Source of the DNA: Escherichia phage vB_EcoM_G5211
Sequence record: MK327947.1
Strand: one strand, 5' to 3'
DNA: 64,000 nucleotides
Every line of letters starts with the position of its first letter. The first letter of the stretch is position 1. The notes under the pieces are model-generated. The model was not told the origin of the DNA and did no database searches. It saw only the letters and a list, made by a program, of their open reading frames with translations. This document shows, in pieces, positions 44,549-60,176 of the stretch. The translations under genes and the position numbers were made by a program.

Positions 44549-45517
44549 TTACATCCCTAACAGAGCGTCAAGATCATCCAGATCAGAAGCGGAGGAAGTA
44601 CCGCCACCCAGATCCAGCGATGCCATCAGGTCATCAGCGGAAGAATCTAACGCCGTGCTAGCTGCGTTAATACCAACTACAGTGCTAGCTGCGTTAATAC
44701 CAGAATCGAATGCATTCATCTGTGCGTCAAAATCGTCAAGCTGGCTGTTAATCGCTGCCGCAGCACTGGAAGCCGCAGCACCAGCTACCATAGAAACGCC
44801 CATAGTTTTCTTAAATTTGGTTTCCAGTTCATCGAACGGTTTAAACTGGCTAGGCGCTACAATCTCACTCAGGTCAACCATGTTTTCCATCAGATATTTC
44901 TGATATGCTTCGTCTTCAATTTTCGGAAGCTGTGATTGCTGCATGAAACGAGAATCATCATAGTTCTGGTGTTTATCAACCTTCTTAGCTTTCAGGAGGA
45001 AGTTAGCACCGGAGAACACACAAGTTACATCTACCGGAACTTCGCCCATGTCGGTATTCACGTTCACCATTGCAACGATCTTATCATAAATTTTCTGACC
45101 GAAGCGGAATTTGAATACCTTACCTTCATTTTCTGGTGATTGAGGATCTTTCAGTACCAGAATATTTGCGTAGTAAGACGCTTTACGCTTAATCAGTTGC
45201 CATTCGGTTTTATCGGTATTGTACAGGTCTTTTTCGTTAATATATTTGCACACAGGGCAAGAATCAAAATCACCGTGGGTGCTGGAGCAGTTTTCCCAAT
45301 ACCATTTGCCATTAACTTTGAAGGAATGGTTTACCAGTTTCACAATCGGCAGACCGTCTTCTGTCTTAGACGGCAGGAAGCGAATCAGGGCTTCACCGTT
45401 ACCTGCTGCATCAGTCTTAATCTTCCACTCTTTTGGATCTTCTTTGGAGAAACCGTTGCCACCTTTCAGTGCGGCCAGTTGAGCTTGCAGTTTGGAAGAA
45501 TCTTGGCGTTTAAACAT
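44549..45517 (-). CDS. 32: single-stranded DNA-binding protein gp32
   Basis: From the internal ATG (MFKRQ..); ..[27 protein letters not shown].. parallels T4 gp32; acidic C-terminus. Confidence 0.9.
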
Positions 45518-45553
45518 ATTCACTATTCCTTCTTTTGATTAATTTACTAGACT

Positions 45554-45581
45554 ATTATACAGATTTAAGTTTACTTGTCAA
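45554..45581 (-). promoter_or_regulatory. sigma70-type promoter TTGACA-16-TATAAT upstream of gene 32
   Basis: Perfect hexamers on the - strand; -35 overlaps the gene 59 stop; AU-rich leader precedes the gp32 start. Confidence 0.55.
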
Positions 45582-46258
45582 CTATTTGTTTCGGATTTTA
45601 ATTGAGATATTTCTTTACACTCTTTAACTACTTTAACAAATAATGCTCTTGCTTTTGCGGCGTCAATAACAAGTAGTTTCTTGTACGCCTTCATTTTAAC
45701 ACTATAAGTTTGCCAAATCAAGTCTTTGGCTACCTTGTCGTGTTCGTCGATTATATTTAGAAAGCTATCTAACAACATAAACGACTCAAACGATATAATC
45801 CGATTTTGCAGTAGTTTAAAGATACCGCTAGTTTCGGTTGCGGGATTGTATGTAATTAGCTCTTTAAGAGTAACCCCGCGTTTCTCGGAGAAGTATACCA
45901 GACTTTTAATGTCATCGTCAAATCTTGTTGCTGCATCGGTTATCTTTCCTATGTATTCCATATAAAAGCCGTATGCGTCAACATCAGTGATTTCACCTAC
46001 CCATGCATCGGTATTAGCTACCAGATTGCTTAGGAATAGGAAGTATAGTTCTCTTAGATTGTACTTTTCCGCTAATTTTGCGAAATAATACTTATCTCTG
46101 CGTTTATTGAATGCGGCATCAGACAACCGCATCCTCCAATTGTATTTTACGCAATCATAACGCCCGTTCATATGAGCTTTCATCATGCAATATAACATAT
46201 ACACAGATTTAGCATTAATTCGCATATCTGGATCTGGAGGAAGACGGTTTCTGATCAT
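45578..46258 (-). CDS. 59: helicase loader gp59
   Basis: 226 aa; ..GKSVYMLYCMMKAHMNGRYD.. parallels the T4 gp59 N-terminus. Confidence 0.85.
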   Translation of the reverse strand: MIRNRLPPDPDMRINAKSVYMLYCMMKAHMNGRYDCVKYNWRMRLSDAAFNKRRDKYYFAKLAEKYNLRELYFLFLSNLVANTDAWVGEITDVDAYGFYMEYIGKITDAATRFDDDIKSLVYFSEKRGVTLKELITYNPATETSGIFKLLQNRIISFESFMLLDSFLNIIDEHDKVAKDLIWQTYSVKMKAYKKLLVIDAAKARALFVKVVKECKEISQLKSETNS

Positions 46259-53688: not shown

Positions 53689-53696
53689 TATAAATA
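53689..53696 (+). promoter_or_regulatory. late promoter TATAAATA upstream of gene 36
   Basis: Exact octamer ~35 nt upstream of the gene 36 ATG. Confidence 0.55.
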
Positions 53697-55287: not shown

Positions 55288-58068
55288 ATGGCAGATTTAC
55301 AGAGAATCCAATTTAAAAGAACAAGTACGGCAGGTCGCAAGCCGGATGCGAATATTCTAACTCCGGGTGAACTTGCTATTAACCTAGCGGATCGAGAACT
55401 ATATACAAAAGATGACAGCAATAATGTAATTACTTTGGGACACTTTCGCGGTGAGTTGCCATCTGATGCAAATTTAGATAATTATGGACCTACTGGTAAA
55501 TTTACTGGCGTTTGGTCTAAATCAACTTCAACAAATGCGCAGCCAGCAAATAAATTCCCAGAAGAGAATGCTGTAGGTGTATTAGAAGTATTTGTGGCTG
55601 GTCAATTTGCTGGCACTCAGCGTTATACTGTTCGGTCTGGTAACGTTTATATCCGTTCTTTGTCTGCGAAATGGAATGGCGTAGATGGTCCATGGGGTCC
55701 GTGGCGCAATATTCAAACTGGCACACGTCCACTATCAACTACACTAGACTTGAATACTTTAGGTGATGCTTCTCATTTTGGGTTATGGCGAAATAGTTCA
55801 AGTTCCATTGCATCATTTTCTCGAAATTACCCAGAAGAAGGTGGTCTCGCGCAAGGTCTTTTAGAAATTTATGAAGGTGGTAACTATTCTCGCACGCAAC
55901 GTTATACTACCCGAATGGGTGTTGTATATGTTCGTTGTCTTGCTGGTGCATGGGATCCAGAAGCTCCGAATTGGGGACCGTGGCAACAAGTAGGTATGGT
56001 TACTCCCAACACATTCTATGACGGGGATCTTAATAATTTTCGTTCTCCTGGCTTATATAATATTTTAGGCACTGATGCCGTTATTAACCGTCCAGTTGCA
56101 GAAGGTGTTCCGGTTGAGATGACCGGATTGCTTGAGGTTAAACAGCGTGCTTCCGGTGGCGCTATTTTCCAACGTTTCACTACCGCAGGAACGGGATCTA
56201 CTACCCGTGGTCGTGTTTTTGAACGTGCAATGACAAATAATATCTGGGGAAATTGGCATGAAGTATATACATCTTATTCTCTGCCAATTACTTTGGGTAT
56301 GGGTGGTATTAAAACTCAATTAGCGGAGCTAGATTGGCAAACATTTGATTTTGTTCCTGGTAGTATGTTTAGCGTTCCTTTGAACAAAATAAAGAACATG
56401 CCAGCAAATATGGATTGGGGTGCGATTGACGGAAACTTGGTTATGTTTTCTGTCGGTCCTAGCGAACACACTAGCACAGGGCGTACTGTTCAGGTTTGGC
56501 GTGGTACTGTATCCCAGACAAACTACCGTTATTTTGTCGTTCGTGTGTTCGGTAATTCTGGAAATAGAACTTGTACAGTTCGCCGTGTTGTTCTTGAAGA
56601 CGGATCACATACTTGGACTGCTAAACAAGATTTTAATGGTGCTGTCAACTTTGGTGGTTCGACAACTTTTAAGTCCACTACAACTTTTAACACAGAAGTT
56701 AAATTCCGTTCATCCAATGCATTTAAAATGTATGGCGGTAATTTTGGCACAATTTTCCGTAATGATGGTGAAAGTCTTTATATTCTTTCCACCGACGAAA
56801 ATGATCAAGATGGAAACTTTAATACAAATAGACCTTTCCGCTATCAATTAAAAACTGGCGATGTTACTTTGGGTGGCACTAGCGGTGCTAACGCTTTAGT
56901 ATTAAAAGGCGGTTCTCTTGCTGCTACCTTTAGCGGTGATGTTAATTTAAGTAAAGGTACGCTGACGTTTGAAGCGGGTGGTAAGCAATCACGCGATTAT
57001 TTCCGGTTTAATCATTGGGGTGATAGCAATAACGCTCGTGATAACATTATTCAGTTAGAAGATAGTAAAGGCGCTCATTTTTCCACTGAACGTACTTTAG
57101 CGACTGGTGCAATTAAAACTAAATTCTTTGGTGAAGTTGAATCAACTGGTCGATTGACTATTAAACGTCCGGGTGGTGCTATTGTATTATCGACTACAGC
57201 CAGCAACGCTTTGCATATTCGCGGTGACGTAGACGGGAATGGTAACTGGTATATTGGTAAAGGTGGTGCTGATAATTCGCTAGCATTTTATAGCTATGCT
57301 ACTCAGGCGGCAGTACATATAACAAACAATGGTGAGATTGCGTTAAACCCGCAAAATACCTTAATGGTTAACGTTAACCGCGATCGTATGTATATCAATG
57401 GTGCAAGTTGGGTTGCCAGACAACCAGGTGATTGGGGCAACCAATGGCGAGTAGAAGCTCCATTATTCGTTGATCATGGTTATGTTGGTCAAGATAGTTA
57501 TTATCCTATTCTTAAAGCAAGAAGCGTTATAACCAATCAAGGATATAGCACCGCTGTTGACTTTGGTATGCGTCGTATTCCATCACAGTGGGGGCAAGCA
57601 ATCATTCGTGTCGGATCCACGGAGGCTTCTCCTGATGCTGGACACCCACAAGCTGTGTTTGAATTCCATCATGATGGGTTCTTTTATACACCAGGAAATG
57701 GTAGCTTTAGCGATGTGTATATTCGTTCTGACTCCCGTCTTAAGATTAATAAAGAAGAGTTAGAAAACGGAGCACTTGAAAAAGTATGCCGTCTGAAAGT
57801 TTATACTTACGATAAAGTTAAGTCTATTAAAGATCGTAGTGTGATTAAACGTGAAGCTGGTATTATTGCTCAGGATCTTGAAAAAGAATTGCCGGAAGCT
57901 GTATCTAAAGTTGAAGTTGATGGATCTGATGTTCTGACAATTTCTAACTCGGCAGTGAATGCTCTTTTAATTAAGGCTATTCAGGAAATGAGTGAAGAAA
58001 TTAAAGAATTGAAAACTCCTTTCTTTACTAAAATTGCTCGCAAAATTAGTAAATATTTTAAATTCTAA
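55288..58068 (+). CDS. 37: long tail fibre distal subunit gp37 with C-terminal intramolecular-chaperone (S74-like) domain
   Basis: N-terminus MADLQRIQFKRTSTAGRKPD.. parallels T4/T2 gp37; C-terminal SDSRLKINKEELENGALEKV..GIIAQDLEKELPEAV matches the auto-cleaving chaperone signature. Confidence 0.85.
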   Translation: MADLQRIQFKRTSTAGRKPDANILTPGELAINLADRELYTKDDSNNVITLGHFRGELPSDANLDNYGPTGKFTGVWSKSTSTNAQPANKFPEENAVGVLEVFVAGQFAGTQRYTVRSGNVYIRSLSAKWNGVDGPWGPWRNIQTGTRPLSTTLDLNTLGDASHFGLWRNSSSSIASFSRNYPEEGGLAQGLLEIYEGGNYSRTQRYTTRMGVVYVRCLAGAWDPEAPNWGPWQQVGMVTPNTFYDGDLNNFRSPGLYNILGTDAVINRPVAEGVPVEMTGLLEVKQRASGGAIFQRFTTAGTGSTTRGRVFERAMTNNIWGNWHEVYTSYSLPITLGMGGIKTQLAELDWQTFDFVPGSMFSVPLNKIKNMPANMDWGAIDGNLVMFSVGPSEHTSTGRTVQVWRGTVSQTNYRYFVVRVFGNSGNRTCTVRRVVLEDGSHTWTAKQDFNGAVNFGGSTTFKSTTTFNTEVKFRSSNAFKMYGGNFGTIFRNDGESLYILSTDENDQDGNFNTNRPFRYQLKTGDVTLGGTSGANALVLKGGSLAATFSGDVNLSKGTLTFEAGGKQSRDYFRFNHWGDSNNARDNIIQLEDSKGAHFSTERTLATGAIKTKFFGEVESTGRLTIKRPGGAIVLSTTASNALHIRGDVDGNGNWYIGKGGADNSLAFYSYATQAAVHITNNGEIALNPQNTLMVNVNRDRMYINGASWVARQPGDWGNQWRVEAPLFVDHGYVGQDSYYPILKARSVITNQGYSTAVDFGMRRIPSQWGQAIIRVGSTEASPDAGHPQAVFEFHHDGFFYTPGNGSFSDVYIRSDSRLKINKEELENGALEKVCRLKVYTYDKVKSIKDRSVIKREAGIIAQDLEKELPEAVSKVEVDGSDVLTISNSAVNALLIKAIQEMSEEIKELKTPFFTKIARKISKYFKF

Positions 58069-58104
58069 CAACAAGGGGGCGTTGCCCCCTTTGGAGTATA
58101 AATT

Positions 58105-58218
58105 ATGGCAGTAGTTGGTGTTCCTGGTTGGATTGGAAGTTCAGCCGCAAATGAAACAGGACAACGATGGATGAGTCAAGCGGCTGGTCAATTAAGATTG
58201 GTGTTCCTTGCTGGATGA
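58105..58218 (+). pseudogene. 38: gp38 adhesin N-terminal segment (37 codons) in a different frame from the gp38 body
   Basis: GGAG RBS then [32 protein letters not shown] (conserved gp38 N-terminus), running into a TGA at 58216; the body continues in the -1 frame. Confidence 0.6.
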
Positions 58219-58904
58219 GTCAATTTGCAGGTCGCTCGCGAGAAATTATTCATACTGTAGGAGCAAACCACAATTTTAATGGTCAGTGGTTCCGTGATAG
58301 ATGCTTTGAAGCTGGCGGTGCACCTATTGTATTCAATATTGTTGGTGATATCGTTTCTTATTCTAAAGATGTACCGCTTTTCTTTATGTATGGTGACACT
58401 CCTAACGAATACGTTGTCCTTAATATTCATGGTGGTGTCCATATGTGGGGTCGAGGTGGTAATGGTGGATACACTCACTCAGGTGGAGATGGTAACGGTA
58501 CACAAGGCGGTCATGTTATTCAAAATGATATCGGTGGACGGCTTCGTATTTGGAACTACGGTGTTATAGCTGCTGGCGGTGGTGGCGGTGGTGGTATTGC
58601 ATATCGTCCACACTCAGGGGCAAACTGGCAAGATATCGGTGGCGGTGGCGGTCGACCTTTCGGTGGTGCTGGCGGTGGCGGTTATTCCGGTGGTGCTGCT
58701 TCTTATGAAGGTCCGGGTGGTGGTTACAACTATGGTAACGCACACTCCGGCGCGGGTGGTAATGCTGGCGCTGCTGGTCAGAATGCATGGTCTGATGGCG
58801 GTAAAGTTCTTAAAGTTGGTGTTGGTGGTGCTTCTGGTCATGCCGTGTTTGGATCTTCTCCAACTTGGGGCGCTGTAGGGACAATTTATGGACCTTACAT
58901 TTAA
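58167..58904 (+). CDS. 38: gp38 receptor-recognising adhesin, body with glycine-rich motifs (T2-type)
   Basis: ..[41 protein letters not shown].. plus poly-Gly motifs; no RBS before this in-frame ATG. Confidence 0.8.
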
Positions 58905-58963
58905 CCGTTAAAAAAGAATTAAGGAAAAATCCCAGGGAAGGGAACTACTAAGGAGAAACGGCT

Positions 58964-59203
58964 ATGGTCTATAATATCGTCATTGGTGCTTTGTCTAATT
59001 TCGGAATGAAATTATTGTCAAAGTTAATTAGTGAAAAGATGCTCACTAAAATTTTCTTCTATTGCGCTCGTCGTCTTGCGGCTTATACCAATACGCCAAT
59101 TGATGATCGTTTTGTGGAAGAACTTTATAAGGAGTTTAATAAAGATCAGTCAGAAGATAGTAACGAGCAAGATAAACCTAGTGATAGTCAACTACCTAAA
59201 TAA
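58964..59203 (+). CDS. small protein with hydrophobic N-terminus (79 aa) between genes 38 and t
   Basis: AAGGAGAA RBS; N-terminal MVYNIVIGALSNFGMKLLSKLI; acidic C-terminus. Confidence 0.55.
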   Translation: MVYNIVIGALSNFGMKLLSKLISEKMLTKIFFYCARRLAAYTNTPIDDRFVEELYKEFNKDQSEDSNEQDKPSDSQLPK

Positions 59204-59236: not shown

Positions 59237-59893
59237 ATGCAAGTTTCTGAAAAAGGGAAAGACTTTGCTATCTCAAATGTCCTGCGCGCTATTTTCACAA
59301 CTAAAAGCACGGAGTTGCTCGTACTTCGTGTTTTTGCTGCCGTCGTGTTGTCCATATTAGCATTTGTCGTTTATAGTAAAAACGAGTTATTTGCGCTTTA
59401 TAAAGAGACTCGTTATGAGACTTATGCTCACATTCTCCAGGTAGAGAAAGACCGCAATTTTGATAATGCAGCACAGGAGCAGTTACAGATAGTTCATGTG
59501 TCGGCTGATGCCGATTTTTCTGCTGTTTTTAGTTTTCGTCCGAAAAACCTAAACTATTTTGTTGATTTGGTGGCATATGAAGGAAAGTTACCGCATACAA
59601 TCGATGAAAAAAATTTAGGCGGATTCCCTATCAATAAAACGAGTGAAGAATATCGTAGGCATCTTTTAGGTAAATCATATTTTACCGATAAAGATTTCCA
59701 GTATATTCCATCAAGAGAAAAGAAATTAGAGAATATCGATATAGGGTTTATGTATTCTTGCCCTATATTCAATCTCGATAATGTCTATTCTGGTAGTATC
59801 GCCATTGCATGGAAGAATAAACCGGATATTGACATTGAGAATTTAGATACTCTTTGCAATCAATCTGCCAGAATCCTCGGAAGGATTAGATAA
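59237..59893 (+). CDS. t: holin T
   Basis: 218 aa; ..LEQLQIVHVSADADFSAVFSFRPKNLNYFVDLVAYEGKLP.. parallels T4 holin; N-terminal TM; C-terminal ..ARILGR.. Confidence 0.9.
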   Translation: MQVSEKGKDFAISNVLRAIFTTKSTELLVLRVFAAVVLSILAFVVYSKNELFALYKETRYETYAHILQVEKDRNFDNAAQEQLQIVHVSADADFSAVFSFRPKNLNYFVDLVAYEGKLPHTIDEKNLGGFPINKTSEEYRRHLLGKSYFTDKDFQYIPSREKKLENIDIGFMYSCPIFNLDNVYSGSIAIAWKNKPDIDIENLDTLCNQSARILGRIR

Positions 59894-59898
59894 CTTAA

Positions 59899-59930
59899 AG
59901 GGGAAGCCTTTCGGCCTCCCCTTCTTTTTA
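59899..59930. terminator. bidirectional terminator between convergent genes
   Basis: GGGGAAGCC-tttc-GGCCTCCCC with T-rich runs on both sides. Confidence 0.55.
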
Positions 59931-60176
59931 TTGGCGCATAGAAGCCCCTGAATCACATTTTGACGCTGTATGATGAAAACAGGTAGCGTACCAGTCATCG
60001 GCTTGTTTGTCTTCGTCAGAAAACGCGTAATTGCGTTGTATGCCGTTTTCTACTTTGACCAGTGCAATAGCTGTTTCTGGAAGATCAATCAATCGGACAA
60101 AATCACCATCTTCCCACTCTACACGAGCAATATCATAGCCCATCTCAACGTATACAATCGCTTGTTCTAATTTCAT
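59928..60176 (-). CDS. hypothetical protein (82 aa)
   Basis: ORF convergent with t; no motif recognised. Confidence 0.5.
   Translation of the reverse strand: MKLEQAIVYVEMGYDIARVEWEDGDFVRLIDLPETAIALVKVENGIQRNYAFSDEDKQADDWYATCFHHTASKCDSGASMRQ

What the first reader, a model, noticed from the sequence alone, without database searches (positions are those of the whole stretch)
58964..59203. Unannotated small membrane-type ORF between gp38 and holin t
A 79-aa ORF with a strong RBS, hydrophobic N-terminus and acidic tail lies between 38 and t, where I recall T4 having no gene. Its position suggests a lysis or fibre-assembly accessory.
Basis: partly seen in the sequence, partly recalled or inferred. 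Interest (0 to 1): 0.4.

Follow-up and report, generated by a model that had tools for sequence, protein, structure and literature searches.

The report
RB49-type homologue of PM2 lysis factor P18
The small gene between the tail-fibre adhesin and the holin is real and conserved, but it is the already-reported RB49-group relative of the phage PM2 lysis protein P18, so it is a known kind of lysis accessory whose exact job in T4-like phages is still untested.

Summary
The 79-codon ORF at 58964..59203 (+) exists as described, with an AAGGAG ribosome-binding site 8 nt upstream. The window is not T4. It is a Krischvirus (RB49 group), 100% identical here to phage vB_EcoM_G2494. All 58 Krischvirus records carry the ORF, annotated 'hypothetical protein' ('Dc5' in RB49). 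It is under purifying selection (dN/dS 0.12-0.25). It belongs to PHROG 402 / Pfam PF26925 'Phage_PM2_Gpl', the family of the Pseudoalteromonas phage PM2 lysis factor P18 (gp l). In PM2, P18 has been reported as required for outer-membrane disruption. Krupovic & Bamford (2007) already reported P18 homologues in RB49 and Felix O1. Across unrelated phages the gene sits in lysis cassettes, next to single-TMD holins, endolysins or spanins. In RB49 relatives the ORF-t pair stays constant while the upstream fibre tip changes. This favours a lysis role over fibre assembly. The N-terminus is an amphipathic helix rather than a classical transmembrane segment. The acidic tail is lineage-specific and predicted disordered. 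The mechanism is untested; Krischviruses also have spanins, so the role may be auxiliary or holin-linked. Verdict: real gene, known family, low novelty.

The parts
58950..58955 (+). Shine-Dalgarno AAGGAG, 8 nt upstream of the ATG
   Evidence: Read from the sequence. The internal Met15 used for RB49 'Dc5' has no such site.
58964..59203 (+). 79-aa ORF, the Krischvirus homologue of PM2 lysis factor P18/gp l (PHROG 402; Pfam PF26925 Phage_PM2_Gpl)
   Evidence: ORF list. phrog_402 match at E 5e-20. PF26925 is precomputed on cluster representatives 61-92% identical to the ORF, with 'Phage_PM2_Gpl' as the name shown. hhalign of the family profile against PM2 gp l gives 95.7% probability, E 9.6e-9. 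dN/dS is 0.12-0.25.
58967..59026 (+). Helix 1 (aa 2-21): amphipathic, moderately hydrophobic, with near-invariant F13, K16 and L17; not a classical TMD
   Evidence: AF2 secondary structure. Hydropathy. Conservation.
59033..59086 (+). Helix 2 (aa 24-41): conserved core E24..FFxxARxLA
59087..59107 (+). Family signature T-x-T-P-I-D-D (aa 42-48): the loop and N-cap of helix 3. T42, D47 and D48 are at least 90% conserved across 65 diverse members.
   Evidence: Alignments A1, A2 and A6. The N-capping reading is my inference.
59108..59143 (+). Remainder of helix 3 (helix 3 = aa 47-60; this part covers aa 49-60)
59144..59200 (+). Acidic, low-complexity C-terminal tail (aa 61-79). It is specific to the Krischvirus lineage, absent from PM2 and Felix O1 homologues, and predicted disordered.
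   Evidence: pLDDT below 50. Alignments.
59237..59893 (+). Holin t, the constant downstream partner of the ORF
   Evidence: Pfam Phage_holin_T at E 2e-61. The ORF-t adjacency is conserved in RB49, G2494, L018, L019 and L020.
59900..59921 (.). GC-rich hairpin followed by a T-run; the terminator that closes the tail-fibre/ORF/t late transcription unit
   Evidence: Sequence. Annotated as a terminator at the equivalent position of G2494.
58105..58904 (+). gp38 adhesin gene upstream, interrupted in this window by a 1-nt deletion in a G-run near 58200
   Evidence: Two overlapping ORFs. Pfam GP38. Alignment with G2494.

Best explanation
The ORF is a genuine late gene encoding the Krischvirus orthologue of the PM2 lysis factor P18 (gp l). 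What is shown: it is a conserved, selected coding sequence. It belongs to the P18 family (PHROG 402 / PF26925). It is the penultimate gene of the tail-fibre/holin late unit, which ends at a terminator just after t. The product has no signal peptide, lipobox or convincing TMD. It is predicted to form three short helices (2-21, 24-41, 47-60), with a conserved TxTPxDD turn and a disordered acidic tail. What is inferred: it is made in the cytoplasm late in infection together with holin T. As reported for P18 in PM2, it acts in the final stage of lysis, helping to break the outer membrane once the holin has permeabilised the inner membrane. RB49-type phages also carry the PseT.3/PseT.2 spanins, so its contribution here is probably auxiliary or conditional, for example when divalent cations stiffen the outer membrane. 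The physical mechanism is not known for any member of the family.
For: Family membership: phrog_402 matches the window ORF (E 5e-20) and PM2 gp l (E 8e-14), both over nearly the full profile. hhalign of a 65-sequence family profile against PM2 gp l gives 95.7% probability, E 9.6e-9. PF26925 'Phage_PM2_Gpl' is precomputed on all close relatives.

Published function and homology: P18 is required for outer-membrane disruption and P17 is the holin (PMC9502842; PMC6356626). P18 homologues were reported in RB49 and Felix O1 (PMC1950889).

Lysis-cassette context in independent lineages:
- Krischvirus: the ORF sits before holin t.
- Ounavirinae: it sits before a TM+coiled-coil 'putative holin'.
- Two Vibrio siphophages: it sits directly after two different endolysin types, GH108 and T4-type lysozyme.
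- VA-RY-3-like podophages: it follows a TM+coil protein and a DUF5675 protein.
- Pantoea/Enterobacter prophages: it sits between a lysozyme and an Rz/Rz1-like pair.
- PM2: k (holin) precedes l.

The ORF-t pair is constant while the fibre tips vary. 58/58 records that have t also have the ORF. Purifying selection is shown. Of the phages named as carrying P18 homologues, PM2, PaP3, P-SSM2, P-SSM4 and S-PM2 are on the spanin-less list, where about 13% of genomes lack spanins. This fits an outer-membrane role.
Against: No experiment exists for any tailed-phage member. Krischvirus and Felix O1-like phages already have complete two-component spanins, so an outer-membrane role would be redundant there. 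The protein has no export signal, so it could reach the periplasm only through holin lesions. Pairwise similarity to PM2 gp l is not significant (BLASTP E 0.5), so homology rests on profiles. The structure prediction is of low confidence (pLDDT 61). I could not read the primary PM2 paper (Krupovic et al. 2007, Mol Microbiol 64:1635); its conclusions are taken from later papers that cite it. The local Pfam copy lacks PF26925, so the window ORF itself was not scored against that model.
Confidence: 0.6

Rival explanations
1. A cytoplasmic partner or regulator of single-TMD holins (co-holin, antiholin or holin chaperone) rather than an outer-membrane disruptor. It would bind the cytoplasmic side of T, or of P17-like holins in other phages, and tune the timing or size of the lesion.
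For: The gene is almost always adjacent to a single-TMD holin or holin-like gene. These are T in Krischvirus, TM+coiled-coil proteins in PM2, Ounavirinae, VA-RY-3, L011, and the 87-aa protein in the Pantoea prophage. It coexists with full spanin sets. It has no export signal, so the default location is the cytoplasm. RB49 annotates rI but no rIII at the T4 position between genes 30 and 31, which leaves room for an analogue.
Against: PM2 work, as summarised in later papers, assigns inner-membrane permeabilisation to P17 and the outer-membrane defect to P18. The partner holins belong to unrelated families (T versus P17-like), which argues against a specific protein-protein interface. In two Vibrio phages the neighbour is an endolysin, with no adjacent TMD protein.
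Confidence: 0.2
2. A tail-fibre or tail-tip assembly or structural accessory, as its position after the fibre genes might suggest.
For: It lies immediately after tail-fibre, adhesin or needle genes in Krischvirus, Ounavirinae, Aeromonas phage LAh_8 and SU10-like contigs.
Against: Four different fibre-tip architectures precede the same ORF-t pair. These are gp37+gp38, gp37 alone, gp37-S74 plus three small ORFs, and a 524-aa Gp10_C fibre. In Vibrio siphophages and in prophages the gene is beside endolysin or spanin genes. PM2 has no tail. In T7 and T4 (from general knowledge) holin genes themselves follow fibre genes, so this position is typical for lysis genes.
Confidence: 0.07
3. A conserved small protein with a different role (for example superinfection exclusion or host takeover), or no important role; its linkage to lysis genes would be historical.
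For: No functional data exist for tailed phages. PHROG 402 is labelled 'unknown function'. All GenBank records say 'hypothetical protein'.
Against: The linkage to lysis genes recurs across unrelated genome architectures and survives endolysin replacement. There is strong purifying selection and genetic evidence from PM2.
Confidence: 0.12

Closest known systems
Pseudoalteromonas phage PM2 lysis factor P18 (gp l, gene XVIII; Pfam PF26925 Phage_PM2_Gpl; PHROG 402)
   Same: Profile-level homology over the whole PM2 protein. Both are small helical proteins without a TMD. Both share the E..FFxxAxxLAxxT/SxNT/TxxDD/N..L core. Both are encoded next to the holin at the 3' end of the late operon.
   Different: The window protein is 28 aa longer, with about 8 extra N-terminal residues and a 19-aa acidic tail. 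Pairwise identity is only about 21-23%. PM2 lacks spanins and uses the P17 holin, whereas the Krischvirus has T holin, RI, endolysin and spanins. No experiment has been done on the Krischvirus protein.
Felix O1 ORF189 and other Ounavirinae homologues (e.g. Michonne gp58, vB_SflM_004 gp80)
   Same: 44-47% identity over the core. They belong to the same PHROG and Pfam family. The position is the same: after the last tail-fibre gene, beside the presumed holin, at the end of a late unit.
   Different: The partner is a 111-124-aa TM+coiled-coil protein (phrog_4038) that lies downstream, not T. There is no acidic tail (64-65 aa).
Two-component spanins (lambda Rz/Rz1; T4 PseT.3/PseT.2)
   Same: The same lysis step (outer-membrane disruption), according to what is reported for PM2 P18.
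   Different: There is no N-terminal TMD with a periplasmic coiled coil and no lipobox. The Krischvirus has its own spanins elsewhere in the genome.
Phage phiKT gp28 'disruptin' (recalled from Holt et al. 2021; not checked here)
   Same: A small, non-TMD helical peptide proposed to breach the outer membrane without spanins.
   Different: Disruptin is cationic and resembles an antimicrobial peptide. This protein has a net charge of about -1 (11 K/R, 12 D/E) and an acidic tail. No sequence comparison was made.
T4 RIII cytoplasmic antiholin (recalled from Chen & Young 2016; not checked here)
   Same: A small helical protein of about 80 aa, without a TMD, involved in T-holin-dependent lysis control.
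   Different: It sits at a different locus and no sequence relation was shown or tested. P18-family genes also occur in phages without T holins.

Membership tests
PM2 P18 / gp l family (Pfam PF26925 Phage_PM2_Gpl; PHROG 402) | Significant match to the family profile | tested here: met
   phrog_402 matches residues 9-62 at E 5e-20 over 54 of 58 profile positions. PM2 gp l hits the same PHROG at E 8e-14. hhalign gives 95.7% probability. PF26925 is precomputed on relatives 61-92% identical. The PF26925 model itself is missing from the local Pfam copy.
PM2 P18 / gp l family (Pfam PF26925 Phage_PM2_Gpl; PHROG 402) | Small size (about 50-85 aa), all-helical, with the conserved E..FFxxA..LA..TxTxxDD..L core | tested here: met
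   The protein is 79 aa. E24, F31, A35, L38, A39, T42, T44, D47 and D48 align with the family. Three helices are predicted.
PM2 P18 / gp l family (Pfam PF26925 Phage_PM2_Gpl; PHROG 402) | No transmembrane domain or signal sequence (as described for gp l) | tested here: met
   The Kyte-Doolittle maximum is 1.31. The Hessa-scale sum is +6.8, against -2.1 for the T holin TMD and +7.6 for PM2 gp l. No dedicated TM predictor was available. Some family members are more hydrophobic (family median +3.6).
PM2 P18 / gp l family (Pfam PF26925 Phage_PM2_Gpl; PHROG 402) | Encoded in a lysis cassette next to the holin | tested here: met
   The ORF is directly upstream of t (33 nt apart) and shares its terminator. 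The arrangement is conserved in 58/58 records and in three diverged contigs.
PM2 P18 / gp l family (Pfam PF26925 Phage_PM2_Gpl; PHROG 402) | Required for outer-membrane disruption during lysis | not testable with these tools
   This needs phage genetics. It is known only for PM2, via citing papers.
Holins | At least one bona fide transmembrane domain | tested here: not met
   The most hydrophobic 19-mer contains K16, and K20 follows immediately after it. The hydropathy is far below that of T and P17. The longest run free of charged residues is 15 residues in this protein (family median 11).
Spanins (i-spanin, o-spanin, u-spanin) | An N-terminal TMD with a periplasmic coiled coil (i-spanin), or a lipobox signal (o- and u-spanins) | tested here: not met
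   There is no TMD. There is no Cys-containing lipobox: the only Cys is C34, within helix 2. There are no hits to spanin PHROGs.
Tail-fibre assembly chaperones (T4 gp38 type, gp57A, Tfa) | Sequence membership and co-variation with the fibre tip they serve | tested here: not met
   No Pfam, PHROG or NCBIfam hit to such families was found. The ORF is unchanged while the fibre tips differ.

The most novel reading that the evidence does not exclude
P18-like proteins may not be outer-membrane disruptors in tailed phages. They could instead be a widespread, unrecognised class of cytoplasmic partners of single-TMD holins (T in RB49-type phages, P17-like TM+coiled-coil holins elsewhere). In Krischviruses they could fill the role that RIII plays in T4. 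PHROG 402 is large and labelled 'unknown function', so this would add a fourth generic component to many Gram-negative lysis cassettes.
Probability: 0.2. Interest if true: 0.55.

Novelty: already known. Interest (0 to 1): 0.25.

Why it matters
The gene is not new. It is annotated in every related genome, it has a Pfam family named after PM2 gp l, and the RB49 and Felix O1 homologues were pointed out in 2007. What remains open is how the P18 family works and why phages with complete holin-endolysin-spanin sets keep it under selection. RB49-type and Felix O1-type phages infect E. coli and Salmonella. They therefore offer a far more tractable system than PM2 for testing whether P18-like proteins are a spanin-independent route through the outer membrane or a holin cofactor. 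On the practical side, GenBank and PHROG entries for this family ('hypothetical protein', 'unknown function') could be upgraded to 'PM2 P18-like lysis protein'.

Tried and rejected
- The search for related loci failed with three family alignments because no stretch was conserved enough. I used tblastn on annotated phages and the look-up of encoding contigs instead.
- The local Pfam copy and NCBIfam gave no meaningful hit, and PF26925 is absent from the local copy. The family name came only from the precomputed labels.
- The PDB profile search returned only designed helical-repeat and armadillo proteins. I treat these as similarity of helix-loop-helix composition, not homology.
- AlphaFold2 with 18-sequence and 36-sequence alignments gave pLDDT 61 and pTM 0.27-0.28. 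The tertiary fold is not trustworthy, so I ran no fold search.
- The large repeat proteins found in the representative search (P0041, P0067, P0103, P0105) are spurious repeat-inflated matches.
- tblastn with P0042 found nothing.
- Ideas considered and dropped:
  - A lambda-like dual-start holin/antiholin using Met15 (RB49 'Dc5'). Met15 has no Shine-Dalgarno and is not conserved.
  - The TxTPxDD loop as an EF-hand-type cation site. The spacing does not fit the canonical loop, and a helix N-cap with Pro at N1 is the simpler reading (inference).
  - A recalled resemblance to the MscS TM1-TM2 loop. No Pfam support was found.
- The primary PM2 lysis paper is not in the library.

Full report
**Observation.** AAGGAG at 58950-58955 lies 8 nt upstream and is the best Shine-Dalgarno among the neighbouring genes. 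Upstream is a T2-type gp38 adhesin (Pfam GP38, E 1e-65). Downstream, 33 nt away, is holin T (Phage_holin_T, E 2e-61). A GC-rich hairpin with a T-run follows t at 59900-59921 and is annotated as a terminator in the closest relative. The ORF and t are therefore the last two genes of the tail-fibre late unit.

**Which phage this is.** The window is not T4. The 336 bp around the ORF are 100% identical to Escherichia phage vB_EcoM_G2494. They are 90-100% identical to 58 records, all RB49-group phages (Krischvirus, Straboviridae).
- In all of these records the ORF is annotated as 'hypothetical protein'.
- In RB49 there is a second, shorter annotation, 'Dc5', starting at Met15. A 2019 paper draws 'the Dc5 ORF' in its tail-fibre maps of pseudo-T-evens (PMC6832132).
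But T4 is the wrong reference.
- The same 58 records carry t, so co-occurrence is complete.

**Is it a gene?** I compared the window with three diverged RB49-like metagenomic contigs (60-75% amino-acid identity). The ORF has dN/dS of 0.12-0.25, with synonymous sites near saturation. Holin t in the same pairs has 0.03-0.09. This is a selected coding sequence. RB49 itself starts with GTG at the same codon. Met15 has no ribosome-binding site and is not conserved, so the 79-aa form is the likely product.

**Family.**
- The protein matches PHROG 402 ('unknown function') at E 5e-20 over residues 9-62.
- Every close relative in the large protein collection carries a precomputed hit to Pfam PF26925. 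The gene tables of the look-up of encoding contigs give its name as Phage_PM2_Gpl. This model is newer than the local Pfam copy, which explains the empty local scan.
- I fetched PM2 (AF155037). Its gp l is 51 aa, MFSTLAKYLAVKLLTETFIKRVCLATAKHLANKSENTLDNELIDALEDALN, encoded right after gp k.
- PM2 gp l hits PHROG 402 at E 8e-14 over its whole length.
- A 65-sequence family profile aligns to gp l with 95.7% probability, E 9.6e-9.
- Pairwise BLASTP is not significant (E 0.5), so the relationship is visible only at profile level.
- An exhaustive profile search found 94 representatives at E below 1e-3. Nearly all are 55-85 aa. Four large repeat proteins among them are artefacts.

[quoted passage not shown] Both papers cite Krupovic et al. 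2007, Mol Microbiol 64:1635, which I could not read. [quoted passage not shown] The homology of this very gene was therefore reported long ago.

**Anatomy.** AlphaFold2 predicts three helices (2-21, 24-41, 47-60) and a disordered tail, but with low confidence (pLDDT 61, pTM 0.27-0.28). This held even with a 36-sequence alignment. I trust only the secondary structure and ran no fold search.
- The conserved core is F13, K16, L17, E24, FF31-32, A35, L38-A39 and the T42-x-T44-P-I-D47-D48 turn. I read the turn as a helix N-cap, which is my inference.
- The N-terminal helix is only moderately hydrophobic: the Kyte-Doolittle maximum is 1.31 against 2.86 for the T holin TMD.
- An unweighted Hessa-scale sum gives +6.8 for this protein and +7.6 for PM2 gp l. 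It gives -2.1 for T and +1.3 for P17.
- The helix carries K16 and K20.
- Across the family the median longest run without charged residues is 11. Some members are more hydrophobic (family median +3.6, overlapping weak TMDs).
- 'Membrane-type' is therefore not supported for this protein. Peripheral membrane binding cannot be excluded.
- The acidic tail (residues 61-79) is specific to the RB49 lineage and is absent from the Felix O1 (64 aa) and PM2 (51 aa) homologues.

**Genomic context elsewhere.**
1. RB49 relatives. The module upstream of the ORF takes four forms: gp37+gp38 (window, G2494, L020), gp37 alone (RB49), gp37-S74 plus three ~100-aa ORFs (L018), and a 524-aa fibre with a Gp10_C domain (L019). 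ORF-t is invariant in all of them.
2. Felix O1, Michonne, Omen and a Yersinia phage (Ounavirinae). The order is last tail-fibre gene, then the P18-like gene, then a 111-124-aa TM+coiled-coil protein annotated 'putative holin'. Lysozyme and spanins lie elsewhere.
3. Two related Vibrio siphophages. The P18-like gene follows the endolysin directly, although the endolysins differ in type (GH108 versus T4-type lysozyme).
4. Vibrio podophage VA-RY-3 and contig L012. The order is TM+coil protein, DUF5675 protein (which I take to be the endolysin, an inference), then the P18-like gene.
5. Contig L011. The P18-like gene is followed by an 82-aa TMD+coil protein.
6. Pantoea and Enterobacter prophages. 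The order is an 87-aa TM+coiled-coil protein, lysozyme, a GIY-YIG endonuclease, two ORFs, the P18-like gene, an Rz-like i-spanin, and a lipoprotein o-spanin (LysC).
7. Aeromonas phage LAh_8. The gene lies among tail genes, with no lysis gene visible nearby.

The recurring neighbour is a small single-TMD protein with a coiled coil, which is the architecture of the PM2 P17 holin. The link to lysis genes is therefore strong and independent of tail-fibre type.

**Mechanism.** The best-supported reading is that the protein is made late, with T, in the cytoplasm. As reported for P18, it would contribute to the last step of lysis.
- Five of the phages named as carrying P18 homologues (PM2, PaP3, P-SSM2, P-SSM4, S-PM2) appear on the list of spanin-less phages, where only about 13% of genomes lack spanins. 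These are not independent lineages, so this is only suggestive.
- Against a simple spanin-substitute role, RB49, JSE, Phi1 and the Felix O1 group all have two-component spanins, as do the prophages in item 6 above.
- Hence the role in this window is probably auxiliary or conditional.
- Alternatively, the family acts with single-TMD holins on the cytoplasmic side. RB49 annotates rI but no rIII at the T4 position.
- I put about 0.9 on family membership, about 0.65 on a lysis role of some kind, and about 0.4 on outer-membrane disruption specifically.

**Verdict.** This is a real, conserved gene of a known family, whose presence in RB49 is already in the literature. Novelty is low. The residual interest is that the mechanism of the P18 family remains unknown and could be tested in E. 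coli with this phage group.

Noticed in passing
window 58105-58904 (deletion near 58200): The gp38 adhesin gene is split into two overlapping ORFs (37 aa and 245 aa). The cause is a single-base deletion in a G-run (GGG to GG) relative to the otherwise identical vB_EcoM_G2494 gene. This is either a sequencing or assembly error or a genuine adhesin-null frameshift.
   Followed up: partly
window 59928-60176 (- strand): The 82-aa ORF convergent with t matches the Pfam Tad2-like (Thoeris anti-defence 2) domain above its gathering score (29.9 bits against 25, E 8e-7). The same weak hit appears on the equivalent genes of contigs L018 and L020. It is a candidate anti-Thoeris sponge that is annotated as hypothetical.
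   Followed up: partly
window 55288-58068 (+ strand): gp37 carries a C-terminal Peptidase_S74 intramolecular-chaperone domain (residues 814-872, E 1.3e-11) and is also followed by a separate T2-type gp38 adhesin. RB49 relatives show at least four different fibre-tip solutions at this locus.
   Followed up: partly
L022 (RB49 NC_005066) 45367-46143: RB49 itself has no gp38 between 37 and the P18-like gene. It does annotate a gp38-adhesin-like gene far away, in the early region (RB49p079).
   Followed up: no
L017 9780-9941; L003 5187-5552; L008 2319-2609; L013 2890-3153; L011 5201-5449: Small single-TMD proteins with a coiled coil accompany P18-like genes in at least five unrelated phage groups. 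Their architecture matches the PM2 P17 holin. Their sequences are mostly unrelated or only faintly related (phrog_736 hits at E 0.057 and 3e-4). This may be a recurring two-gene lysis module.
   Followed up: partly
L013 3669-4097 and L015 3657-4088: A SegE-like GIY-YIG homing endonuclease gene is inserted inside the lysis cassette of Pantoea and Enterobacter prophages, directly after the lysozyme gene.
   Followed up: no
window 58097-58103: A T4-late-promoter-like TATAAAT overlaps the gp38 start codon. Transcripts starting from it would begin inside gp38 and could serve the P18-like gene and t. A full TATAAATA lies at 53689, upstream of gp36.
   Followed up: no
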